This document shows positions 3,599 to 49,014 of a stretch of DNA of 54,430 nt, piece by piece; positions within the stretch are counted from its first letter, which is position 1, and each line of letters begins with the position of its first letter. Under the pieces are notes generated by a model, which searched no databases, was not told the DNA's origin, and saw nothing but the letters and a program-made list of their open reading frames with translations. Source of the DNA: Girardia tigrina (taxonomy: Eukaryota); the NCBI GenBank assembly GCA_001938485.1, contig MQRK01250505.1, positions 12,567 to 66,996 on the forward strand. Direction: 5' to 3'. The position numbers and the translations under genes are program-made.

Positions 3599-5069
3599 TT
3601 GGTTCGTACCAATATTTCTGTTTGTGATCAGTAAAGGCGGAAATTACTAGCGCAGTATATAGTAACATATAAAGAGTAAAAATATGTAATAGTTAAAAAA
3701 ATATTTACAGAAAATATTTATTGAATAATTGTTGGAATATTGGTTGATTTATTTGTCTGTATGATGACGGAAATTCGAAAAAATCTTCGTTTCTATACCT
3801 TCTCCCGTTATTCACTCGGCATAACGGGAAGTAACATTTATCAGAAAATTATCTCTGTTCATGGTGCTGACAGTGTTGGAGAATCTACGATGTATCGGTG
3901 GATAACTGAATTTGACAATGGCAAGACTTCTTTTGCTTGGGAAAACTGCGGGAGAAAATCAACAAAAACAACCCCTGAAAACATTATGTTGTTCTCTGGA
4001 ATTATTAACGCCAATGGTGCAGTGACCATTGATGAAATTGAAGATGAGACATCCCTCAGTCATGGAACCATTCAGCGTATTGTGAGTGACCATTTGGGTT
4101 TTCGGTCTGTTGCATGTAAGTGGGTTCCTCATGCATTGTCAAATGATCAAAAGGTTAATCGTGTCACTGCTGCAAAGGATTGGTTGAAATATTTGAAAAG
4201 CAAACACCAACATGAACATATTTTGAAGGTGGATGAGAAGTGGTTTTAGTGGTTTTTCTCAACTTATTCTCAAACTTTAAATGGGTTCGAAGTGCGCCTC
4301 TCTTTAATATTTTTGTTGGAGGTGTTCATCGAATACAAATGCCTAGTGGGCCATTTTTGGTAAGCAGAACTGGCGATGTGGGATGAACCAAACATACATG
4401 GATGAGAAGTGGTTTTATATGAGAACTGTTGGCAAGAAAAAAGGCAACCGTTGCTGGGGCTCCCCTGATGGTGATCACAGTGAACCCATTCATGTCGTGA
4501 AGCGTAGCCAGTTTGACAGAAAAATCATGCCTGTCATCGCAGTGTCCTTCACTGGAAAATATCATTGCAAACTGCTGCAGGAGAAAGAAAGCATGAATAG
4601 CGAGCGTTATGTCACTTTTCTTGTTAATATGGAGAAGAAGATTAGTCGACATGTTTTTCCATTCAACTGGAGAAACATGATTTTCGTGCAAGATAACGCA
4701 AGGCCTCGTGTTTCCAAAGTAACATCAATGTTTCTCGCAAAAAAGAATGCTACCTTGCTCCGTCAATCACCATATTCCCTGATTATAACATCTTGGATCG
4801 CTTTATTCATTTTTACTTGGAAGATCAGCGACACAAAACCAATTTTCAATCTGCAGATGAGTTACATCAATCCATTACATCAGAACTAAAAAATATTTCT
4901 GCTGATCGATGGTCATCTAAGATGGGAAAACTGATACAATGCGTCCCTAATGTTATAAAGAAGAATGGTGATTATGAATGAATGTATTACACAGGGTTGT
5001 TTCTTTTACATTGCTCGTTAAAAATGATATTGACATTTCAAAAGTCTCATTCTTTCTGGTATGAACTAA
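3599..5069 (+). mobile_element. Mariner (DD34D) transposon, disrupted
   Basis: TA-flanked imperfect TIRs (ttggttcgtacca / tggtatgaactaa). ORF pieces carry an HTH, KWVPHAL, DEKW, QDNARP and a frameshifted PYSPDYNILD. Interrupted by an insert at 4249-4398. Confidence 0.92.
4249..4398 (+). pseudogene. 28S (LSU) rRNA fragment inserted in the mariner, flanked by a 19-bp duplication
   Basis: Contains the conserved LSU blocks TATTCTCAAACTTTAAATGGGT and GCCTAGTGGGCCATTTTTGGTAAGCAGAACTGGCGATG(T)GGGATGAACC. Flanked by the direct repeat TGGATGAGAAGTGGTTTTA at 4230-4248 and 4399-4417. Confidence 0.9.
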
Positions 5070-6590: not shown

Positions 6591-7332
6591 TTATAAAAAA
6601 ATTATAAGTTTTGTATTATTTTCAAATATTTAACATAACTTATACTAATTTATAACTTAAATCAAATAGTATTATGAGGTTGTCAAGTATGATATTTGTA
6701 GGAATGATTACAATTATAAGTTATAATTGAAGCGAAATATTTAAAATTTAATCTTTTTCAAATCTCTTCGTTAAATTTTTCAGAAAATAATTTTTGCAAA
6801 AATACTCCTTGCAAGGGTTGTGAGAGTTGTGTAATATTAAACTGAATTAAGTTAATTATATTTTAAAGAATAAAATGTTTTCATACTGTCAATTTCATCC
6901 ATCGACTATTAAAAACAAGAAAACACAATTTTTAAAAATTTATTATTATTTGATAATTCTGATCATTAAAACAACATTATTTATTTTAAAATAATATTTT
7001 TAATTTAAGTAAATGTATTTTATACATACATAATGAACACAAACAAATATTTTAATGCATTTCCACAACCTTACCAATGATCTGTCCTTTTGACTAAAAT
7101 GAATATTTCTTTCTTTGACCATTTTCTGATCTTCTCTTTATTTATCCAAAGGCTTCTTGAGTAAATATAAGCAATCTAAAAAATTCTTATATAAATAATA
7201 TGATAAATTAAATGTATTTATAACTCTAAAAAAAGTAAAAGTTAGTTATCCAAATTTTTATTTATATTATATTTTATTTTTATTTATCTAAATCTTGTTT
7301 GGTTTATTTCACCTTGTTTCTGTCCAATTCAT

Positions 7333-7430
7333 CAATACTTTCCGTCTGGATTTTTCTGCTCGTGATCGTCGACTTCTTGTTGTAATGCGCCAAACGACTG
7401 ACCAGACTTGCCACTTGCTGAAAAACATCA
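7333..7430 (-). pseudogene. H2B: Histone H2B coding fragment
   Basis: Minus-strand frame reads [29 protein letters not shown], compared with H2[30 protein letters not shown]. Flanked by TCCAATTCAT at 7323-7332 and 7431-7440. Confidence 0.85.
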
Positions 7431-7440
7431 TCCAATTCAT

Positions 7441-7887
7441 TTATAATGCCCAATCACGATTTTTGGCCCTGAAGAGGGCCGTATGTCTTTCGCAATTATT
7501 AGAAGCACTTGAGGAACCACCGAAGAGATAAACTGGTTGAAACAATTTCCCAAGATTCGAATTCAGTACATAATCGAGAGTGGTACTATTCAATTTAACC
7601 ATGACGCTGATCGGCACACGCTTTCCATGAATTCCAGAAGTAAAATAAACGTAAATTATCTGTAATTGCAAATCACAGTCGCCTTCGTAAACTCCAGTGG
7701 TTGGTTTGATTCCGTGTTCATTGGGCATTATTTTCCTAAACTTCGTTCCAATACTGTTTCCACAACTTTGAAATATTCTCCTTAATTCATACCATTGATC
7801 ATGAATTCCTCCACATGTCTTTATAAAATAATCCACATTAAAAATAGAGTCAAAAGACAAAGTTATCTGTTCTTTTAAATTAGACAT
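7441..7887 (-). CDS. Intact 148-aa orphan ORF, possibly a very diverged H4-like protein
   Basis: ATG-initiated and stop-free in AT-rich DNA, with CCAAT and TATATAAAG upstream. Weak in-order echoes of H4 (RKI..N..GIKP, GVYE, HGKR, YLFGG), but the spacing differs from H4. Confidence 0.4.
7465..7480 (-). terminator. Histone-mRNA-type 3' stem-loop
   Basis: GGCCCT-CTTC-AGGGCC: 6-bp stem and 4-nt loop fitting GGYYYU-YUUN-ARRRCC, with A/C-rich flanks (AAGACATAC / AAAAA). Confidence 0.75.
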
Positions 7888-7970
7888 TTAGACAATTAAA
7901 TTAGACAATTAGACAAGGCAAATCGATTTTCTTTATATATCTTTATTGGTTATCAAAACTGTATAATTAT

Positions 7971-7990
7971 AATAATTCGTTTAAACAAAC
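7971..7990 (-). promoter_or_regulatory. Shared upstream motif GTTTGTTTAAACGAATTATT (copy 1)
   Basis: Identical 20-mer at 21524-21543. Both copies end 84-85 nt before an ATG. Confidence 0.55.
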
Positions 7991-9389
7991 AAATTTTAAA
8001 CCATAACAATTTTAAATTCTTAATATAACGTATATACATATACATATATAAATATATATTATACAAAATTCCAATTTCAATGTTAATTATTTCTTTAATT
8101 TTTTTTATATTAATTCAAATCTGGAACACCTCAAATTTGATTATTTATGTAAAAAGACGTTTGATTATTAATCTTTCCTAAAAATAAAGAGAGATCTCCT
8201 TTCAAAAATCAAAATTAAAAGAACTTGATCGTGTATCAAAGGAAGATATTATTTTCCAAAATTATAATATATTATTAAATAATTATTTAACATTCACAAT
8301 TAAAGTAAAATTACCTATAGAAAACCTTATTTTTTGATTATAATTATGAGTCATAAATTTTGGTTAATAATAGGAATAAACTTTTTCTTTTTTATTAAAA
8401 GATCTTTTTGAGGATACTTAATACGCACTCAAAGTAAAATATAAGTAATTTTAAATGTTATGAAGAGTATTAATTGCAATTTAAAAGAGGATAAAAGTAT
8501 TTTCTGAGCACTAAAAGAGCTAAAGGAAATTTAAATTACTTTTACAATTAAATAAAAACGCAAAACTTTTTTTAATTAACCAAATGATATTATAGTCGCT
8601 ATTTTAAGGAGATTATTTCAGGCAAATGTGGCAACCGTTAAGCTGTTGATAATGCATGAAGGAATAGCTATGGAGAAGTGTTCCATTTCTTTCAGTCTGT
8701 TCCCAGACCCGTGGAAACCATTCCTCCACGTCGTACAAAATCTTCTAATCCGATTAGACAAGAGACAGAATGAAGACAAATAATTAAAAGTCTGTTAAAA
8801 TGAAATAAAATCCTTCAAGCGGTTATTTTATTTTATATTTTTTTCTAATATTCAACAAATACGAAAGAATGAGGAAAAATTGGAGAAAATGTTTATTTGA
8901 AATTTTCGAAAATAAAATAAAAAATTCTTCTCATTATGCAAACCTCTGTAATTATTTAATCAAACAAATTCAGTTTAAAGAGAATATTTGAAATTTTTAT
9001 TTTATTTTTTTTAATTTTTTTTATAGAAAAATAAAATCTCAGAAAACCTCTGAGCAATTTAATTCAGGCAATTAACTTTCTTTTTTTCCATTCATTAATG
9101 AACTTTCATCATTCTACTTCAAAACAGCAGTTTGATTGTTATAAATTTATACAAGTGCCTTTTGAGAGCTAAATGGAGATCTTTAACAGTTCCGTTTGAT
9201 CGTGGATCGTGTCTTCGCTGGAGGGAAGAAGATTATGAAAGAATAAATATAGATATTTATTAATCTAGTTCTCTGTTTTTCATGAGAAATCGTTTGTTCA
9301 CTTCGAAGCGGAATAAATAGTCTATTTGAATGGTATTTCTAGTAAGTTAAGAAGTTCAATGTTTTGGTATCAATCTCATTTTTTATATA

Positions 9390-10599: not shown

Positions 10600-11560
10600 G
10601 TGTTCGAGTTTGATTATAGATTATTTTTGTCATCTATTTTCTACCTGAATCACCAATGGAAAATCGTAATAAGTGCATTAATGTTACGAAAAATTCTTGT
10701 ATTCTACAGTATGTGGCATGACAATAATTTTGTAGCGAAATACACCGATATCGATTATCGTGTGTTCACGTCAGCAGGCGGATATGTGAAAGCTAATCTG
10801 TCCACGTATCGCGAGAACACCTATCGCTACACACCGCTCATCGCATATTTGATGCTTCCGAATGTCCTTTTCGGACATTTATTCGGCAAATTGTTGTTTT
10901 GTTTGTGTGATTTGATATGCGTGGGTCTCATGCATTCGATTGACCGTTTGAACAAGTTCTCTAATATTTGGCTGTTCATTTCTGCAATTTGATTGTTCAC
11001 TTCGCTTATTTTCACGGTCTCTTCTCGCGGCAATGCCGAATCGTTGTTGAGGATTTTCATTTTGTCGACTTTGTTTCTGTTACAAACGAATCGAATCGTT
11101 TTCTCAGCGATTATGTTCGGTTTTTGTGTCCATTTCAAGTTCTATCCGATCATTTATTCGTTCTTGATCTATTTGTATTATGTGACGATTATCAATTTCT
11201 TAACTTGATTTTCCCAATAGAAATCAATTGAAATTTGTGTTTGCTACTCTTGTGTCATTTGTGTTGATTTCGAGTCTTTTTTTAGCGGTTGTATGGATGG
11301 GAGTTCGTTTACCATTCGTACTTGTATCACGTACTTGTATTTACGGGTGGATATTAAACATATTTTTTCAGTTTTTTTACGCTCAATATTTACTATCGAT
11401 TACTCGTTATAAAGCGATTTTCGGACTTTGTGCTTTTATTCCCCAATTGACAATTCTGTGCTCCTTTAGTTGGAAACATCGATCTGATTTGAATTTGAGT
11501 TAGTTTTAATGTACGATTGGGTTTGTGGCGTTTAATAAAAAAAATTGGGGAGCCTCACAG
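10600..11560 (+). pseudogene. PIGM: GPI mannosyltransferase I (PIG-M/Gpi14) pseudogene, intronless
   Basis: Motifs KYTDIDYRVF, TYRYTPL, GKLLF..CD, SSRGNAES, VHFKFYPIIY and FIPQ. In-frame TGA at 10990-10992, further stops and a frameshift after ~11200. Confidence 0.88.
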
Positions 11561-13868: not shown

Positions 13869-15140
13869 TTAGGGTGAACCAAAAGTCTTTTCGTATTTTT
13901 TATTAAAAATTTAAACATAATTTTACAAATAAAAAACATTTAAGTTTCAAAGTAAAGGCCATTTGAATCTATAGCTTGAACCCATCTATGGGCAAGTTGT
14001 GCGATCCCGCTGCGGTACCAATCCTTGTTCTTAGAAGCGAAGAACTGGTGACACCCGTTTTCGACTTCGGCTAGATTATTGAAGCTGTGACCACGAAGAA
14101 AGTGTGCCATAGAGCGGAAAAGGTGATAGTCGGATGGCGCAAGATCCGGATTATACGCAAGGTGTGGAAGAAGTTCAAAGGCATCGCGATTTTTGATTTT
14201 TTCCTTTGTTTATTTGGAGGTGTGCAGTTTTGCATTGTCCTGTTGTCGAAGAACTCGCTTTCGATTGATCAAAGCGGGGTATTTCTCGCCAAGTGCCGTA
14301 TACATTCGATCAAGTTGGGCGCAGTAAAGGTTAGCGTTGATAATACGACCATTTGGAACCAACTCGAAGTTAATCAAGCTTTCGAAATTCCACCAAACAC
14401 ACAAAAGTGCCTTCATTGAGAAAAGATCTCGCTTTGCTACCGGTTTCGCCATTTGTCCGTGGTCCAACCATTGATTTTGTTGGTCTGGATTACTGAAGTA
14501 AACCCACCTTTCATCGCAAGTTACAATTTGACGGATGAAACAGTCATCACGCGCATTTTCAAGCAATTTTTGACAAGTTTCGAAACACTTTTCGGCTTGA
14601 ATTTGAGTCAATTCATGAGGCACTTCTCGACATTGTCTATTGACCTTACCAAGAGCATGAAGGTGTCGTACAATGAATTTTTGAGGAATATCGAGTTCGG
14701 CCGACAATCTTCAAGTACTTATTGGCGGATTTTTCTCCACGGCTTCACAAATTGCTCAGGAATCTACGGTGATAGGTGGGCCTGAAAGTGCATTGTCTCC
14801 GAGGTCAATGTCACCTTCGTTGAACCTTTTGAACCAATTTTGTGCAGTACGATTTAAGACCACATTATCGCCTTCAACTTCGCATATCTTCTTTGTTGCT
14901 GCAGTTGCGTTTAAGCCCTGTTTTCAGTAATGGCGTAAAGGAACACGAATTTCAAAATTTTCCATGATTTTTCTAAAAGACCATAAAAATTATATTAACG
15001 AATAATTAGAAGTTTTAATATGTATGATGATTAGCTTTAAAAACATATAACACATGTATATAAGATATCTTTATGTGGTAATAAGAAACAATGGAACAAA
15101 AAGACGTAGAAAATACGAAAAGACTTTTGGTTCACCCTAA
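13869..15140 (-). mobile_element. Full-length mariner (DD34D), transposase pseudogenised
   Basis: Perfect ~31-bp TIRs TTAGGGTGAACCAAAAGTCTTTTCGTATTTT with TA on both sides; 1272 bp long. Motifs VPHELT, VTCDERW, QDNAKLH, AYNPDLAPSDYHLF. Frameshifted. Confidence 0.96.
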
Positions 15141-20221: not shown

Positions 20222-20364
20222 TGGCGACCACGCCAGGAAAAAATCCATTCTGAATACAATGAAAGTGTTTTAAAATGAATTAAAATTTTTATTCAAATTG
20301 AAAAAATAAAATTTATTTATTAAAAAAAGGTTTAAAAAAACATTGTATATAATTATATATATAA

Positions 20365-21400
20365 AATTCATGAATGGTCTTCATCCTAATATTAAATTTA
20401 CCACAGAATTGGAAGTAGATAATAAACTTCCCTTTCTGGACATTCTTGTCACTAGGATGAATGGAGGCTATAAAACTGAATTATTCAGAAAGGCAACAGA
20501 TACAGGTCTTTACACAACACCACAGAGTTTTTGTGAGGAAAAATATAAAGAGGGTATGATAAAAGGGCTTGTTTACAGAGTTTGGAATTTGTCGTCCAGT
20601 TTTGAAACTGCAAATCAGGGTTTAAATATTCTTAGAAGGCGCTTAAGGGACAATATGTATACAAACAAGCAAATAGAACACAATATTAGGGTAACATTAG
20701 ACAAATTATGTACAGATGTATGAGTTAAAAAACAATTAAAAGAAGAAAATACTGAAGAATACAAACAAATCATTAAAATTCCATATTCTGAAGGATTTAG
20801 AGCGTTTAAGAAGAGTATTTGTAGAACAATAAGTAGTACTNNNNNNNNNNNNNNNNNNNNNNNNNNNNNNNNNNNNNNNNNNNNNNNNNNNNNNNNNNNN
20901 NNNNNNNNNNNNNNNNNNNNNNNNNNNNNNNNNNNNNNNNNNNNNNNNNNNNNNNNNNNNNNNNNNNNNNNNNNNNNNNNNNNNNNNNNNNNNNNNNNCA
21001 CTCGCAAATGAGTCGATCGAGTAAGGTTCTTGATCATTGGTTATGTTGTAAGGATAGAACCTCATCCATTTCAAAAGAGGAGTTTTCTGTTTTACAAAAG
21101 GGTTTTGATTCACATTATGAACGGCAGCTTTGTGAATCTCTACTAATAAGACACTACAACCGATCAATTAACATTCAGAATGGGCAAAGTAAGGTTATTT
21201 CAATACTTAAAATTTAATTAAAATATTTTTGCCATTATTACTCAATAATACTTTAATAAATAATAATATTTAATCCCTAATATACCTTTTAAAGTTAATG
21301 TATATATTAAAATTGTTTTCGAATTACTGATGATGATGTGTGTAAACATAGAAACATGTCCAATAATTATATAAAAATGCTTTATATAATTATATATAAA
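20365..21400 (+). mobile_element. Penelope-like retroelement, 5'-truncated (RT C-terminus, GIY-YIG C-terminus, pLTR)
   Basis: LHPNIKFTTELE...LPFLDILV...FRKATDTG, then RQLCESLLIRHYNRSINIQ. A hammerhead follows. TATATAATTATATATA occurs at both ends (possible TSD). Confidence 0.9.
21322..21365 (+). ncRNA. Minimal type I hammerhead ribozyme (degenerate)
   Basis: CUGAUGA at 21327, short stem II, then GAAACAUGUC with palindromic ACAUGU. Mismatches in stems I and II. Confidence 0.7.
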
Positions 21401-21446: not shown

Positions 21447-21499
<53 letters not shown>

Positions 21500-21523
21500 T
21501 AATTTAAAAATGTTTTTTAATTC

Positions 21524-21543
21524 GTTTGTTTAAACGAATTATT
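21524..21543 (+). promoter_or_regulatory. Shared upstream motif GTTTGTTTAAACGAATTATT (copy 2)
   Basis: Identical to 7971-7990 (minus strand); overlaps the palindrome AATTCGTTT-GTTT-AAACGAATT. Confidence 0.55.
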
Positions 21544-21627
21544 TTAAGATTGGAATTGTTATCTAATAAAATTATTCGACATTATCGATTTTTCTTATTG
21601 TTATTGAAATAAGAAAATAAAAAATAA

Positions 21628-21816
21628 ATGAAAACTAAATCTCATCATACGAGAATTTTAGAGAAGAGATTCGTCAATTATCAGTATACGCGAAGTACTG
21701 CTTCTTCTTTGGGATCGCTAAAGTCGCCTCGAACGACATTAAAAGCGAAATTATTGAAGAAAATACAAGAATGTTTAATATCTCCGTCAATTACTGAGTC
21801 GAAAATCGGAGGATAA
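21628..21816 (+). CDS. 62-aa basic orphan ORF ending just before a histone-type stem-loop
   Basis: ATG lies 85 nt after the shared motif; TAA lies 8 nt before the stem-loop. No recognisable homology. Confidence 0.3.
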   Translation: MKTKSHHTRILEKRFVNYQYTRSTASSLGSLKSPRTTLKAKLLKKIQECLISPSITESKIGG

Positions 21817-21824
21817 AGACATAC

Positions 21825-21840
21825 GGCCCTCTTTAGGGCC
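21825..21840 (+). terminator. Histone-mRNA-type 3' stem-loop
   Basis: GGCCCT-CTTT-AGGGCC with the same flanks (AAAGACATAC, AAAA..GTGATTGG) as 7465-7480. Confidence 0.75.
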
Positions 21841-22374
21841 AAAATTTGTGATTGGTCTGTAAAAGAAGAAGTTGTTAAACTTACCATGGGGATCTTCCAA
21901 CCCAGAAAAACATACAAAAAAGTAGAAGAACTTGTGAATATACTAACAAAAGAAAAATTGTCTAAAAAAGAACTACCCAACCTTGCCTGTTTAAATATGG
22001 TTGACAGTTATGAAATCAAAAAAGAATTAAAACTGAAAGGAACAACTGAAACCAAAGATATAATAATATTATTAATGAAAAAAATTTTTTATAAAAACAA
22101 CCACGTTTTTCAAGCATTACCAATGTACTAAAAAGAGGAAAATAATTTTTTTCTAGACATGTGAGAAATTTTATACCTAACCCAAAAACGTGGGGCGGAT
22201 TTCNNNNNNNNNNNNNNNNNNNNNNNNNNNNNNNNNNNNNNNNNNNNNNNNNNTTATTTTCCTCTTTTTAGTACATTGGTAATGCTTGAAAAACGTGGTT
22301 GTTTTTATAAAAATTTTTTTTTATTAATAATATTATTTAACTATTTTTAGTTATCATTTAGGAATTTTTTTTTC

Positions 22375-22998
22375 AAAATTTTTTTTATCAAGTTGTATTG
22401 TCATCGGAAGCAAGCCTGTATAAAACTTCATTCATGAAAATAAGCGAAAAGATTGCTATTTAATACAGTGTATAAATCTGTAGATAATCGTAAGTGGTCT
22501 TTTGCAAAACAAATTAGAAAAAAATATTTTTTTTCAAAGTTTTTTTATCAAATTGTATTGTCATCGGAAGCAAGCCTGTATTAAACTTCATTCATGAAAA
22601 TAAGCGAAAAGATTGCTATTTAATACAGTGTATAAATTTGTAGATAATCGTAAGTGGTCTTTTGCAAAACAAATTAGAAAAAAATATTTTTTTTCAAAGT
22701 TTTTTTATCAAGTTGTATTGTCATCGGAAGCAAGCCTGTATAAAACTTCATTCATGAAAATTATCGAAAAGATTGCTATTTAATACAGTGTATAAATTTG
22801 TAGATAATCGTAAGTGGTTTTTTGCAAAACAAATTAGAAAAAAATATTTTTTTTCAAATTGTATTGTCATCGGATGCAAGCCTGTATAAAAAAATTCAGC
22901 TCAATTGGATGACTGAAAGTGGTCGAAAAATCAATCGCAAGATTTGTTCCAGACAGACAAACAGACAAGAAAGCAAGCTAATAAAAACGTGGTAAAAA
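22375..22998 (+). repeat. 160-bp tandem repeat (about 3.2 units) within a Helitron/Helentron-like non-autonomous element
   Basis: GTATTGTCATCGG recurs at 22395, 22555, 22715 and 22861. Followed by a CAGACAGACAAACAGAC microsatellite and the end AATAAAAACGTGGTAAAAA. Confidence 0.8.
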
Positions 22999-23899: not shown

Positions 23900-26800
23900 A
23901 CCAATATGTACGAACTACGTAAAATGGAAAGTGAGGAAACAGTGGCAGCATATACGACGTTAAATAAACAAGATAATTGGAACACCGTAACTAGACGCAA
24001 AGCTGTACACAATGAAAGAACCCGGTATATACATTACGAACACAACAATAGGAACCAAGGAAATAATGGATTCAAACCGAAAAGTAATTATTACAGAACT
24101 GTAAAATGTTATGCGTGACAAGAAGAAGGCCACATAAGAAGAGATTGCCCAAATGTGAAGTGTACTCACTGCAACAGAAATGGCCATTATAGAACTCAAT
24201 GTTATCTCAACAAGAATAGATTTCAGGAAAGAAAACAGTACAGTAGAAACAGCGATTGGAAGAAAGCAAATAATACAGCATTCCGTAATAGACCTCAAAA
24301 TCATCGATACCCAGTTGAGGAAATTGATGAATGCAATGACGACTGCAAATACGAAGAGATTAGATCAAATCAAGGAAAGATAATAAAAAGGGGGATCTCA
24401 GATAAGTGACAAAAGTATGAAAAGGATCAGGGAAACGAGGAGACACAATCACAAGGAGAGATGATCAATGTGCTTCATTAAGTGATGAAATTAAGTATGA
24501 TTTTGCGTGTGATTGTGTGTGTGAATGTGTGTGTGATATCATATGTAATAGTATGACTGGAAATAACTCCCTCGAAGTTTGTAAATTAGATTGTTGGAAA
24601 GAGGAATGTGAAGAAAACTATTTTAGTAGTAAAATGGAAGAAAAAAGAAACAAAACGAAGAATGAAGAACTTTTAACAATAACAAAACTTAACATTAAAT
24701 GTGACAAACTGGATGGTAGACCAAGTATAGATTTTTACATTAAAAATAGAGAAGTACACTGTCTTTTAGACACCGGTGCTAGAGTAAATGTGATTGAAGC
24801 AAGTTTAATTAAAAACATACTAAACATTAGGACTGGATAATCGCGAAGACGTTTAGTATGCGCAAATGCTTTGGAATTAATAAATTATGGAACAGTACTC
24901 TTGAAGATTAAAATTGAAGGGAACCAAAAGAATATAAAATTCTATGTTGTCAAAGGAATGAACCCAGAAATGATAGCAGGAGTGGACTTTTTGGATAATT
25001 TTGGGATAAAGCTGATGAAGAAATCAATACAAAATAGTGATATATTTATTATGAGGGATAGCCCATCCGATGAAGACAGATTGAAAAGGATAACAGACCT
25101 ATACGAGGTAAGGTCGATGATCAGTAGATGAACATGATAAAAAAGTTTAAGTCGATATTCATGGCAGATAAATGGGATATTGGAAAAACATCATTGACGA
25201 AACACAAAATAGAAACTAATGGTGAACCGGTGTTAGTAAAGCCGTATAGACAACCACGGCATTTTGATGAAAAATTAGACGAAGTTATTAAAAATTTTGA
25301 AGGAAAAGATATAATCAAAAAATGTAGTTCACCATGGAACTTTCCATTGGTATGCGTCTGGAAGAAAGAGAAACAAGAAATACGAGTGTGCATGGATTTT
25401 CGACAATTAAATAAAGTTACTCTTAGACCAGCATTCCCTATGCCAAATGTGGATGATATGTTGAACACATTGAATGGTGCAAAGTATTTCACAACAATTG
25501 ACTTGTGAAACGCATACTATCAAGTTGAACTTGATGGAAAATCAAAGATTAAAACGGCATTCTCGACAAAGAATGGTCAATATTGTTTTAAAAGAATGCC
25601 TTTCGGAATAGCAGCTTTCAAGAACTAATGGTAAAAATTCTTTGGGAATTGAACTGGAAGGAAGCAGTCATATATCTAGATGATATCTTGATATTTTCTA
25701 AAGACATAAAAGAACATCTACAAAGAATAAAAAATGTGTTTTAAAAAAGCAAAGAATCAGGTGTGAGGATAAATCCAGAGAAATGTCAATTTCTAGTAGA
25801 AAAGACCAAGCTTTTGTGCTACATAGTAAGTAAAAAATGGTATAGAAACAGGTTAAACAAAGATTGATGCGATTAACAAGTTTCAAAACCCATCATGTAT
25901 TAAATATCTAAGGAGTTTCTTGGGTTTGACAAATTATTACAAGAAATTCATAAAAGATTATGCAAGATATTCGAAAGTTTTAGAAGGCGTGTGTGGTAAA
26001 AACAAGGATAAGAAAATAATATGTACAAAAGAATGTGACGAAGCTTTTCATAGATTAAAAGAAAGAATGGTTCAAACTCCAATCTTGGCGTATCCAGACT
26101 TCGATAAAGAATTTATATTGGACACAGACGCAAGTTTCGATATGATTGGAGCAGTACTGTCACAAAAAGACTCGCGTGAAAGAGAAAGAGTTATTGCATA
26201 TGGTTCTCATAAGATGAATAAACATGAGCTTGATTATTGTATTACCAGAAAATTATTACTTGCGATATATTATTTTACTCAGCATTTTAAGCATTTCTTT
26301 TATGGAAAAAGATTCTTGTTGCGAACAGACCGCAAAGCTATTACGTTTACGATGACCACAAATTACCCAATAACACCGCAATTTCAAACATGGATAAATT
26401 TTCTCAGCGGTCTTGATATGAGAATGGAATACAGGAAAGGTGAAAGACATACAAATTTAGATGTTATGTAGAGAAACTCTTGTGACTTATGCAGTCAATG
26501 CCAAACAACACATGAAGAAGCGAAGAATGGAAAGATTAAAACTCGAATTCTAGCGTTTCATGAAGAACCAAATAGTTTCAAATGGCAGAATGATAATGAA
26601 GAAATCGAACAAATTAAGAAAGATTTGAAACAAGGAAGAAAAAATAAATTGAAACTGAAAGATGGCATTGTAGCAACGGAAAATAATAAGTATTGGATCC
26701 TGATAACAAATATAACTGATTTTATTGAAGATATGCATAAAATGTTATGTCATGCTGGGAGTAAAAAGGTTTTTAACTACCTCAGAGATCATTTTGATAT

Positions 26801-27300
26801 GGAAAATATGAGAGAAAAGATAAAAGAAGTTGTACAAAGTTGCATAAATTGTCAAAAGCGAAAAACACTAACTGCGAAAACAAAAGAAAGACATATTAAG
26901 CAATTTGCAGATGAACCTTTTCAGAAGATATATATCGATTTTTGTGGCCCATTCAGGAGAAATGTTAATGGATACCAGTATATTTTGGCGATAATTGATC
27001 AATTTAGCCGATATATTAGCCTGAATGCAGTTGCTCACCAAGACGAGAGAACGCTACGGAAAATATTGCTGGATAGATGGATATATAAATATGGACCACC
27101 TAAAGAAATCCATGTGGATAGAGGCCAAACATTTGAATCAGAACTATTTAAAGAAACACTGAAGAAGTTTAAGATAGAAGTATTTTATTCAAGCCCGTAT
27201 CACCACAATACCAATGGAATTATAGAACGACAATTTAGAACAATTAGAGATGCTCTTAATGTCAGAATAAAGGATGGAACACATAGGGATTGAACGGAAA
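23900..27300 (+). mobile_element. Ty3/Gypsy LTR retrotransposon internal region (gag-PR-RT-RNase H-IN), decayed
   Basis: Two CCHC knuckles (one is CTHCNRNGHYRTQC), LLDTGA, SPWNFP..RVCMDFRQLN, YLDD, DTDAS, integrase H..H..C..C, IDFCGP and NGIIER, in Gypsy domain order. Many stops and frameshifts. No LTR pair seen. Confidence 0.96.
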
Positions 27301-35948: not shown

Positions 35949-36195
35949 CAGTGCGTTTCATTTAACAACAGCAGTATACAAAATTCTAACCTTAAAAAAA
36001 TTGGTTGAATATAATTATCCAATGAAATAATAGTTGAAGATCTTTTAACAATAACATTTACTATAGGAATTTAAGTTACACACACTCACACAAGCATATA
36101 CACACANNNNNNNNNNNNNNNNNNNNNNNNNNNACATCAAAACACACAACATTTTAGGGTCATTTAACAATTTAAGGCTCTTTTAACAACAGTAT
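35949..36195 (-). mobile_element. Second copy of the CAGTGCGTTTC MITE
   Basis: TIR at 35949; the interior is the reverse complement of ~9430-9620. Confidence 0.75.
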
Positions 36196-36640
36196 CTCAG
36201 AAAAGTTAATAAAATGAATTATGAATTGGAAACCATTTCTTCGGTGTCAGACAATAATACTGACCCAGTAATGGATGTTTCTCATGAAATTCATGCTAAA
36301 AAGAAACGAAAATCGTAAGATGTTTAAACTTTTTACTTGATTTATTTCCTCATTTTTCAGAGTTTCTAAGAATGACAAAGAGAGAATTNNNNNNNNNNNN
36401 NNNNNNNNNNNNNNNNNNNNNNNNNNNNNNNNNNNNNNNNNNNNNNNNNNNNNNNNNNNNNNNNNNNNNNNNNNNNNNNNNNNNNNNNNNNNNNNNNNNN
36501 NNNNNNNNNNNNNNNNNNNNNNNNNNNNNNNNNNNNNNNNNNNNNNNNNNNNNNNNNNNNNNNNNNNNNNNNNNNNNNNNNNNNNNNNNNNNNNNNNNNN
36601 NNNNNNNNNNNNNNNNNNNNNNNNNNNNNNNNNNNNNNNN

Positions 36641-37197
36641 ATCAATCGTTCGATAGGATCGATCCGAGAAATCATCGATCATCGAGATTAGTAACGACGA
36701 CGACGACGAGGACGAATCGATCAGTTCTCCCGCTGCTCCTCCGCCATCGTCGTCGCCACCGGCTTCAAATAGCGACAATCGATCGATTGTCGGCCAGAAA
36801 CTACCGGATCGTGTGCTCTCGCCTCCAGTCCGTGCAGGTGCCCGTCGTCCGCCAGTTAATCGATCGCTCGCTTTACTCGATTGTCACCGTGGTCGACCTG
36901 GACCGCCTGACCCGGCTCACAGTCCGCTGCGCGCGCTCGTATCGCGACACGGGCGCGCTCGGTGCGCACATCGACTGATTGATTGACCGATTGATATCGC
37001 TGCTGTAAATAAATTCCCAGTTACAATCAACGATTGTGGTCCTAATGAGAACCGGTTCACTTTCTCTGGTGTTGCTCAGCTCGAAGACCACCATCAAATG
37101 GAGGTTACAATCAACGATTGTGGCCCTAATGAGGACTGGTTCACTTTCTCCGGCATTGCACTTCTCGAAGACCGCCGTCGCCGATGTCGTTATAACA
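36641..37197 (+). mobile_element. GC-rich probable solo LTR (5' part lost in a gap)
   Basis: Abrupt GC/CpG-rich block with AATAAA at ~37008, an internal ~83-bp duplication (37020-37092 / 37103-37175), and a ...ATAACA end. Confidence 0.55.
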
Positions 37198-37730
37198 ATC
37201 GGTTGAAAATAAAATGAGATTGTAAAAATGAAATTAATCGACAGTACATAAAATTATATCATAAAATTGAATAACATTCAATTTTATAATATAACATTAT
37301 ATAAGTCTTGCAATTTTTTATAACAGTACATTAAAGCAATCATAAAGCAAAATTATGATTGCTTTTACTGTTATTAAATGTGCACGTTATAACATTTTGC
37401 TGTTGTTAAATGAAACGCACTGTATAATATCTCTCGATATTAATTTTCCTTATTTTATTCTGCACCAGTACGTCTGTTTTTGGTCGGTTGTCTGTGTTGT
37501 GTTTTCGCGTATTTAAACTCTTGCCATCGCATCTGGTGTCACAGTCTTTGTTTTGTGTGCATTCTTGTTCGTATCCTGTACGAAATATTTTTAGTTCATA
37601 TATTACGTGTCTACTTATAATTTTTGGATGCAACTTTTATTGGTACATATTATATTTGTATTTTGTAAATTTTATTATTTATTTTTGTTGGTCAAGAACC
37701 AAGATGAAGTGATTTATGAGAAGGAAATCA

Positions 37731-47889: not shown

Positions 47890-49014
47890 ATGGTTTTAGA
47901 CGTCGGATATTGCAGTGTTATCAAGTTCTTTTTTGACAGAAGATGAGGTGCAGTGAAATCTACGATCTTTTGTAGTCAATTGACTTATTCAAACTCCCTA
48001 CCTCTGACAATGGTTAAATATTCGGTCCGAGAGTTTAAAGGTGGTCGTGACTCCGTTTTTGATCAAGAAAAAATAAATCCGCCACAAGAAATTTTCGACA
48101 CAGTATATGAAAAATTGGAGGTGATACAAGAAGAGCATCGCAATACCCTGATAATGCTGTCACCGAAGCTCAACATTAGTTTTGGTACAGCCCATGCAAA
48201 ATTTAAATCCATGGGTATCAGAAAACTGTTCCAGATTCGTAGCCCGCTTCTTGACTAGTGAAATGATGCGAAACCGCTTGGAGTACAGTCAAAACAACCT
48301 GAATCTATGGGACCAACGTGGTGAGACTTTACTGGAAAATTTAATTACCAAGGAAGAAACCCCACTCAGTATGTATTTACCGGAAAAAAGCATAAGTCAG
48401 CAGAGTGGAAATTGTCTGGAGAGAAGCCATTTTTGAAGATTCGAACAGGGACAAGTCATGGGTAAACGATGATGCTTTACACCTTCTGGGATCATAAAGA
48501 TGCTATTCTCATGGATTTCGGCGATAAACGCATTACCACCAATGCTGTCTACTACAACTAACTCGTGATAACCGCCAGAAAGAATAGGCTGAAACAGAAG
48601 AACAGGCCACTATGAATTTTTTCACGACAATGCACCAGAGCACACAGTAGGCATTTCTCTGGCCACAGTTGAAGGTTCTGGACTAGTGCTTGTAGATCAT
48701 CTACCGTACACCCCAGATTTTGCACCGAGCGATTTATACCTTTTCAGACAACTAAAGAAGCATCTGAGAGGAACCAGTTTCGATCCAAACACGATTTGAA
48801 GGTTGATATGGAGGGTTTCTTCACCGCATTCCCTTAGAAGGTTTCTAAAAGGCGTTTTCTAAGTTGATTATTCGTTGGCGGAAGTGTGTAGAGCGAAATT
48901 GATATTATGTTGAAAAACGATAGCTACATTCGTTAAGCTTGTTGTGTTATAAAAATTGCCATTTTTGGAATTCTTTTTCTTTGTCATGCCGGGTACTTAT
49001 GCAACGCACTACGT
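47890..49014 (+). mobile_element. Mariner remnant, 5'-truncated and decayed
   Basis: SRFVARFLT, LITKEETP, FWD, HDNAPEH, HLPYTPDFAPSDLYLF and RWRKCVE. Probable right TIR at ~48988-49014. Confidence 0.88.

What the first reader, a model, noticed from the sequence alone, without database searches (positions are those of the whole stretch)
21524..21856. Second cassette: 62-aa ORF whose stop lies 8 nt before a histone-type stem-loop
Seen: motif, then ATG, a K/R/S/T-rich ORF ending GG*, the stem-loop, and a purine-rich AAAAGAAGAAG ~20 nt downstream that could be a histone downstream element. The layout is that of a replication-dependent histone gene, but the peptide is not a recognisable histone. 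The 5' motif here is itself a hairpin (AATTCGTTT-GTTT-AAACGAATT), so both cassette ends are palindromic, which could alternatively mark recombination or replication signals.
Basis: partly seen in the sequence, partly recalled or inferred. Interest (0 to 1): 0.7.

Follow-up and report, generated by a model that had tools for sequence, protein, structure and literature searches.

The report
Retrotransposon end carrying histone-mRNA stop signal
The "cassette" is a broken leftover end (solo LTR) of a copy-and-paste jumping gene whose ends carry scraps of host genes and the host's own histone-mRNA end signal, which likely lets the cell's histone machinery cut the element's RNA short in dividing cells (not tested).

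Summary
The features are there, but they are not a mini histone-like gene. Window 21449-21864 is the 3' part of a solo LTR of a high-copy BEL/Pao retrotransposon. The other cassette (7315-8128, minus strand) is a sister LTR. The stop before the hairpin occurs in 1 of 20 copies. In the family the frame runs through the hairpin and the primer-binding site, and in intact relatives on through a ubiquitin domain into Gag-Pol. This LTR leader carries swapped host fragments (H2B, beta-tubulin, EF-2-like, others). The hairpin, its upstream GAGAA and downstream TGATTG are the host's real histone 3' signal, most likely captured with an H2B gene. At least 1,737 exact hairpins exist genome-wide, and 3 of 120 sampled belong to histone genes. 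The proposed purine-rich element is only LTR end plus flank. Across LTR subfamilies the signal varies where host histone signals vary, which suggests RNA-level selection. Against this, about half the LTRs lack it and no RNA end was shown. The scan earlier reported the host-fragment/ubiquitin LTR leader in another genome; the histone signal is the new part. A DNA transposon in this window carries a similar signal.

The parts
21449..21864 (+). 3' part of a solo LTR (family B) of a BEL/Pao retrotransposon; the first ~100 bp of the LTR are missing here, and a different repeat abuts at the (TA)n run
   Evidence: homology 21449-21864; BEL integrase end and polypurine tract upstream of the same LTR in L014; no LTR start directly upstream; nearest hit, 2 mismatches, at 20266, not followed
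21450..21496 (.). (TA)n microsatellite inside the LTR (U3 by inference)
21519..21540 (+). LTR palindrome, probably at the promoter or RNA start; its TTGTTTAA core also lies upstream of 14 of 21 H3 genes (background 2 of 593 windows) and of 0 of 12 hairpin-bearing H2B genes
   Evidence: 717 exact copies
21565..21589 (+). AATAAA (21565-21570), ATCGAT (21584-21589) and T-rich tract: likely the LTR's own poly(A) signal, which puts the ORF and hairpin in U5
   Evidence: (AATAAA 15-40 nt after the palindrome in 58 of 67 LTRs)
21628..21816 (+). 62-aa ORF: broken copy of the LTR-encoded leader frame; source of this leader segment unidentified
21811..21855 (+). Host histone 3'-end signal: upstream purine element, hairpin 21825-21840, TGATTG 21849-21854
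21861..21871 (+). AAAAGAAGAAG: last 4 nt of the LTR plus 7 nt of flank; not a family element
7315..8128 (-). Sister solo LTR (family A, TGTT...AACA): palindrome 7995-7974, beta-tubulin-derived ORF 7887-7441 reading through hairpin 7480-7465, H2B remnant 7434-7342
   Evidence: (tubulin E 4e-19)
35949..37422 (-). Unrelated 1.47-kb TIR element with TA flanks, carrying two tandem histone-type 3' signals with a variant loop (near 37136-37121 and 37053-37038)
   Evidence: (305 candidates)

Best explanation
The region is a decayed solo LTR of a BEL/Pao retrotransposon whose LTR holds the start of a reading frame that likely leads into the Gag-Pol protein and, inside that frame, the host's histone-mRNA 3' signal, which likely lets the host histone machinery cut LTR-started RNA just after the hairpin. 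Shown: LTR identity, host-fragment cargo, an open frame across the LTR end and primer-binding site, and identity of the signal with host histone genes. Inferred: (1) reverse-transcriptase template switches swap host RNA pieces into U5; (2) a ubiquitin domain ending in GG before Gag is cleaved by host deubiquitinases, so leader content is free as long as the frame stays open; (3) the signal arrived with an H2B gene, from an unprocessed transcript or DNA because it includes sequence beyond the cut site, and lost the H2B stop by an internal deletion; (4) SLBP binding and cleavage a few nt after the hairpin, 24-150 nt before the primer-binding site, would turn part of the 5'-LTR and solo-LTR transcripts into short non-polyadenylated RNAs and damp full-length RNA in S-phase cells. 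The 62-aa peptide itself has no function.
For: LTR: 86 polypurine-tract/LTR junctions. Full element L141 has 97.9% identical LTRs, a 5-bp target duplication and a primer-binding site. Pfam DUF1759, RVT_1, Peptidase_A17, Integrase_H2C2, DUF5641 and ubiquitin in L134. Frame: 80 stops in the hairpin frame against 332 and 478 in the other frames, 113 copies. Stop-free before the primer site in 15 of 17 and after it in 11 of 17, against 0 of 17 for each other frame after it. Hairpin-to-end distance is a multiple of 3 in 15 of 18 copies with a clear target duplication, of 37 examined. Sister lineage: 7 of 8 stop-free for 300 nt after the primer site; L275 is open through ubiquitin into Gag. L281 from another sample is one 2536-aa ORF starting 528 codons before its primer site. 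Signal: 27 of 27 host signals have TGRTTG downstream and GNGAA upstream; 84 and 78 of 98 non-histone copies meet looser versions. H2B cargo is 78-86% identical to the L249 H2B class against about 72% to the main class, and 27 of 30 nt match across the signal. In 54 modules not chosen by the hairpin, loop position 4 varies freely and pair 3-14 shows a C-G to T-A switch in 6, which changes two amino acids. Downstream conservation across LTR clusters tracks that of host genes, rho 0.62-0.66. SLBP is encoded. The same 16-nt hairpin marks mRNA ends in C. elegans (PMC1924863, passages).
Against: No RNA 3' end was shown. One contig of a run only guessed to be RNA bridges the predicted cut site (X5 record 17). 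Of 30 LTRs picked by the palindrome, 12 have the hairpin, 13 do not and 5 are uninformative; hairpin-less subfamilies also spread. Position +2 is C in 24 of 24 host signals but A in the window's family and in most LTR copies. No U7 snRNA was found. Shared descent and recombination through the module could give the same conservation; the clusters are related, so the correlation is not a clean test. A cut inside one's own Gag frame is costly. No family-B LTR joined to a primer-binding site was among my loci; the family-B link rests on 3' LTRs (L014, L129). None of 80 BEL loci from other samples matched the hairpin pattern.
Confidence: 0.5

Rival explanations
1. Same solo LTR and leader, but the histone signal is a passenger. 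It came with the H2B fragment, happens to keep the frame open, and persists because the shared module (a hairpin that may pause reverse transcriptase) is where subfamilies recombine.
For: About half the LTRs lack it; +2 departs from the invariant host C; cargo changes on both sides of the module and both stem variants occur with tubulin cargo; single copies break stem pairs at random after insertion; read-through contigs exist.
Against: Silent stem positions stay fixed while loop position 4 and the host-variable flank positions change; the compensatory pair costs two amino-acid changes; a second LTR lineage and an unrelated TIR element also hold such signals.
Confidence: 0.33
2. The hairpin forms the 3' end of the full-length genomic RNA in the 3' LTR (long R region), making a non-polyadenylated, S-phase-regulated retrotransposon RNA; the 5' copy is suppressed.
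For: The signal lies 24-150 nt from the LTR end, a normal place for an R/U5 border; a long R would let cargo be captured at strand transfer.
Against: AATAAA with a T-rich tract is kept upstream in 58 of 67 LTRs, with or without the hairpin; hairpin-less subfamilies transpose.
Confidence: 0.12
3. One reading: a stand-alone histone-like mini-gene making a functional 62-aa basic peptide.
For: The layout in this one copy; a promoter-like core shared with H3 genes; relatives occur in RNA-type contigs.
Against: The stop is in 1 of 20 copies, and no contig of the four runs carries the window's letter at 21814; no Pfam match and only two hits among 1.84 billion representatives, one a related LTR leader and one a repetitive ORF; the proposed downstream element is flank.
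Confidence: 0.05

Closest known systems
BEL/Pao LTR retrotransposons (Semotivirus-type)
   Same: TGTT...AACA-type LTRs, 5-bp target duplications, primer-binding site, polypurine tract, DUF1759-RT-Peptidase_A17-integrase-DUF5641. TG...CA ends, AATAAA and a GT-rich tract fit general LTR anatomy (PMC3601003, passages; that paper did not model BEL).
   Different: The reading frame starts in the LTR, crosses the primer site, carries swapped host fragments and a ubiquitin domain before Gag; about half the LTRs hold the host histone 3' signal.
Tm1-HH elements of root-knot nematodes (PMC3169594, passages)
   Same: Transposon carrying a captured histone hairpin with variable upstream sequence; function left open by the authors.
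   Different: Tm1 is a Mutator/Foldback DNA transposon, 8 copies, non-coding. Here the signal lies in a retrotransposon LTR, inside a selected reading frame, in over a thousand copies. The TIR element at 35949-37422 is the closer parallel.
LTR-mediated retrocopies (Tan et al. 2016, PMC5131818, abstract and section 5)
   Same: Host mRNA pieces, sometimes from several genes, joined to LTR elements including a Pao element, often in frame.
   Different: There cargo replaces internal ORFs; here it sits in the LTR, so gag-pol stays whole and every solo LTR carries it.
U7 snRNA repression of human LTR12 (PMC11417402, abstract)
   Same: Histone 3'-processing machinery acting on LTRs.
   Different: Works through U7-complementary motifs at the level of transcription, with no captured stem-loop.
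Ty1 GAG starting inside the 5' LTR; pestivirus ubiquitin insertions that free a viral protein
   Same: Coding frame over the primer site; host ubiquitin as a cleavable spacer.
   Different: Both recalled from memory; the Ty1 review passages I read (PMC13709905) did not state this. Neither involves a swappable LTR leader.

Membership tests
BEL/Pao LTR retrotransposon | Direct LTRs with TG...CA-type ends around an internal region | tested here: met
   L141 LTRs 97.9% identical; family A TGTT...AACA; family B ends in AAAA instead of AACA
BEL/Pao LTR retrotransposon | 5-bp target-site duplication | tested here: met
   18 of 37 LTRs with a located start, one ambiguous TA case left out; family B 3 of 8 exact (two are duplicates) and 2 with one mismatch; not testable for the 5'-truncated window copy
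BEL/Pao LTR retrotransposon | Gag (DUF1759), RT, Pao RNase H (Peptidase_A17), integrase, DUF5641 in that order | tested here: met
   L134, ending in a family-A LTR; BEL pol end upstream of family-B LTRs in L014 and L129
BEL/Pao LTR retrotransposon | Polypurine tract before the 3' LTR; tRNA primer site after the 5' LTR | tested here: met
   86 and 85 exact junctions, controls 0 (both patterns also catch sister lineages). Initiator-tRNA identity is recalled: 13 complementary genomic matches, but ARAGORN called no tRNA in 2 of 2 loci
Replication-dependent histone gene | Encodes a histone | tested here: not met
   No Pfam match for the 62-aa ORF; related LTRs add only a truncated H2B fold
Replication-dependent histone gene | 6-bp stem, 4-nt loop identical to the host's | tested here: met
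   Identical in 11 of 21 distinct H3 genes
Replication-dependent histone gene | Conserved flanks and downstream element | tested here: inconclusive
   TGATTG present at the host spacing; +2 is A where 24 of 24 host signals have C
Replication-dependent histone gene | Downstream element pairs with U7 snRNA | tested here: inconclusive
   No U7 over the Rfam cut-off; the one weak hit lacks a complement of TGATTG in the stretch printed
Replication-dependent histone gene | Stop codon shortly before the hairpin as a conserved trait | tested here: not met
   1 of 20 copies
Replication-dependent histone gene | RNA ends a few nt after the hairpin without poly(A) | not testable with these tools
   Only contig-type runs were served
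LTR-mediated retrocopy (Tan 2016) | Cargo replaces internal ORFs between two LTRs | tested here: not met
   Cargo lies in both LTRs with gag-pol between them
LTR-mediated retrocopy (Tan 2016) | Cargo from spliced mRNA, microsimilarity at junctions | not tested
   Host donor located only for the intronless H2B

The most novel reading that the evidence does not exclude
Transposons of this animal repeatedly capture the histone 3'-processing signal because it works: BEL/Pao elements use SLBP-dependent cleavage inside their own Gag leader as a cell-cycle switch, and over a thousand solo LTRs act as histone-style mini-genes that make short non-polyadenylated RNAs with host-gene scraps in dividing cells, possibly competing for SLBP.
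Probability: 0.3. Interest if true: 0.85.

Novelty: new variant of a known kind. Interest (0 to 1): 0.62.

Why it matters
Histone stem-loops are thought to be almost confined to histone mRNAs. Here most exact copies in a genome sit in transposons. If used, this would be a retrotransposon tied to the cell cycle through host histone RNA processing, and it would make the question left open for nematode Tm1-HH directly testable with 3'-end sequencing and SLBP knockdown. Apart from that, a Gag leader inside the LTR, buffered by ubiquitin and refilled with host fragments, is a route for exon shuffling that leaves the element autonomous. It also warns that stem-loop searches will over-call histone genes in such genomes.

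Tried and rejected
Rfam scan of the window: no family. Helitron or Penelope end, considered for the 3' hairpin and for tandem 3' duplications: rejected once target duplications, polypurine tract and BEL pol were found. Splicing after the primer site: not needed, because the AT-rich stretch is stop-free in one frame. U7 search: nothing over cut-off. Folding against shuffles was not significant: z -0.59, -1.79, -1.85; the hairpin's case rests on identity with host signals. RNA runs: only contigs; one run (X6) on record as RNA, the rest guessed. Summed depth was high over both cargo regions, near zero over the 5' part of LTR A and lower past the hairpin, but contig depth cannot show starts or ends, and host H2B and other repeats also align, so I draw nothing from it. 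Hairpin-plus-primer-site pattern in metagenomes: 0. Viral contigs: none. Source of the family-B leader: not found. Host clade: the SLBP search gave no named relative; 'flatworm' comes only from an unchecked scan note, so stem-cell (neoblast) readings are speculation. The first conservation comparison filtered on the downstream motif and was circular; one search repeats it without that filter. In one search the script scored L404 (1 base available) as hairpin-positive; I moved it to uninformative. Literature: 'histone stem-loop' + 'LTR retrotransposon' gave 0 papers; a five-term histone/SLBP/U7/Schmidtea search gave 0; Tm1 was the only one of 15 listed papers holding 'histone hairpin'; the listings showed no report of this element. 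The library lacks most subscription journals, and I read no supplements or repeat databases.

Full report
Observation. The genome is a 1.43-Gb AT-rich animal assembly; its clade was not established here.

It is a repeat, and an LTR. Window 21500-21900 has 1,239 candidate matches in the genome; the 40 scored are 82-91% identical apart from the window itself and mostly end at 21864. The other cassette belongs to an 814-bp repeat at 7315-8128. Both start TGTT and end AACA or AAAA. A 5-bp target duplication was clear in 18 of 37 copies with a located start. In L014 (family B) and L028 (family A) a BEL integrase end and a polypurine tract lie directly upstream, and the genome has 86 such junctions. 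L141 is a whole element with 97.9% identical LTRs, a target duplication and a primer-binding site. L134 has ubiquitin, DUF1759, RT, Peptidase_A17, integrase and DUF5641. The window copy lacks the first ~100 bp of the LTR; another repeat abuts it at the (TA)n run.

The ORF is a broken leader. The stop is in 1 of 20 copies, and 8 of 20 (two are duplicates) are open from ATG to the LTR end. No contig of four runs carries the window's letter at 21814. Across 113 hairpin-bearing copies the hairpin frame has 80 stops against 332 and 478. It is stop-free in 15 of 17 copies before the primer site and 11 of 17 after it. The hairpin-to-end distances 24, 42 and 150 keep the frame in 15 of 18 copies; 93 does too. 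In a sister lineage the frame is open for 300 nt after the primer site in 7 of 8 copies, and in L275 it runs through ubiquitin into Gag. The best database relatives are single ORFs with host domains (HSP90; TRAF finger; kinesin plus Sec23/24) ahead of ubiquitin and BEL Gag-Pol; in L281 the ORF starts 528 codons before the primer site. For the window's own lineage, continuity to Gag is inferred from frame statistics, since single copies carry frameshifts. AATAAA and a T-rich tract follow the palindrome in 58 of 67 LTRs, so leader and hairpin likely lie in U5.

Cargo. Of 90 contig-ordered exact hairpins, 2 followed H3 genes. 34 followed a beta-tubulin fragment alone, 19 an H2B fold alone or mixed, 5 the family-B leader alone, 20 other fragments, and 10 were unassigned (references were ORFs taken from these loci). 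Tubulin (E 4e-19), H2B and an EF-Tu-type GTPase piece are tool-supported. The labels cyclophilin, ADP/ATP carrier, BTB, SAP, EF-2 and kinase are my recall. L187 joins the window's leader (78% identical over 51 aa) to an H2B fold.

The signal is the host's. H3, H2A and H2B genes end in GNGAA, a GG(C/T)CCT-CYTN-AGG(G/A)CC hairpin, and TGRTTG (27 of 27 signals); 11 of 21 distinct H3 genes have the window's exact hairpin. The LTR H2B cargo is closest to one H2B class (78-86% against about 72%), whose signal matches at 27 of 30 nt, with the H2B end and stop missing in between. The two stem variants have 609 and 1,128 exact matches, controls 0; 1 of 30 sampled from the second set is a histone gene. 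SLBP is present; U7 was not found. The same hairpin marks histone mRNA ends 3-6 nt downstream in C. elegans (PMC1924863, passages). Planarian canonical histone mRNAs are non-polyadenylated (PMC10954484, passages), which is relevant only if the host is a planarian.

Is it used? For: in 54 modules not chosen by the hairpin, loop position 4 is free, silent stem positions are fixed, and one pair switches from C-G to T-A at the cost of two amino acids. Downstream conservation in LTR clusters follows the host profile (rho 0.62-0.66, 115 against 24 sequences; related sequences, so not a strict test). A second LTR lineage has the hairpin in a different, H3-like context. An unrelated TA-flanked TIR element in this window carries two variant signals. 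Against: 13 of 25 informative LTRs lack it, and 12 of 30 primer-site loci have it (which includes a sister lineage without it). Position +2 departs from the invariant host C. A contig bridges the predicted cut site. None of 80 BEL loci from other samples matches the pattern. I put functional cleavage as an attenuator at 0.5, passenger or recombination module at 0.33, 3' end of the genomic RNA at 0.12, and stand-alone gene at 0.05. The solo-LTR identity itself is near certain.

Known and new. The element is a member of BEL/Pao and not a histone gene. The nearest precedents are Tm1-HH (PMC3169594, passages), LTR-mediated retrocopies (PMC5131818, abstract and section 5) and U7 control of LTR12 (PMC11417402, abstract). 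General LTR anatomy is from PMC3601003 (passages). PMC8532177 and PMC13709905 (passages) added nothing used here. My searches found no report of a histone 3' signal in an LTR or of this leader, within a library that lacks most subscription papers. The scan noted the host-fragment/ubiquitin LTR leader in another genome; I saw those notes after reaching that reading. Verdict: new variant of a known kind, interest 0.62.

Noticed in passing
window 35949-37422 (-): 1.47-kb TIR element with TA flanks (6 of 6 copies with both ends, of 15 loci), 305 candidates, with two tandem histone-type 3' signals (loop CATT); a parallel to Tm1-HH. A similar TIR end abuts the (TA)n of several family-B LTRs (L004, L006, L011).
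   Followed up: partly
L070, L084, L153, L185, L186, L190, L192, L196, L205, L271: A further LTR lineage with its own ends has the hairpin in an H3-like context; possibly an independent capture.
   Followed up: partly
L254, L256, L261, L270, L273, L275: Sister BEL lineage without hairpin; varied cargo (one kinase-like, recalled) in frame with the primer site, ubiquitin and Gag.
   Followed up: partly
L005, L013, L017; joints 21862/21864 back to 21776/21777: Tandem duplication of the last 86-99 nt of family-B LTRs, doubling the signal.
   Followed up: no
L281 (P0002), L282 (P0004), L288; proteins P0001, P0005, P0006: Intact BEL relatives from other samples with host domains and ubiquitin ahead of Gag; in the three loci the ORF crosses the primer site. 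The clade is wider than this host.
   Followed up: partly
H3 loci L041-L065: TTGTTTAA 15-70 nt upstream of the ATG in 14 of 21 H3 genes, and ACCACAACGTAA-like motifs upstream of many H2B and H2A genes: candidate histone promoter elements.
   Followed up: partly
window 20370-21217: Penelope-like RT and GIY-YIG remnants by recall; no Pfam hit.
   Followed up: no
window 22363-22865; 22062-22145 and 22254-22337: Three 160-bp tandem copies; 98% inverted arms around an N stretch; the arms and 21322-21377 match a repeat very abundant in the laid runs.
   Followed up: no
window 23906-27293; 3761-4889; 14210-14452; 48010-48436; 10681-11503: Ty3/gypsy-like pol remnant, mariner-like transposase remnants and PIG-M-like gene pieces, all by recall.
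   Followed up: no
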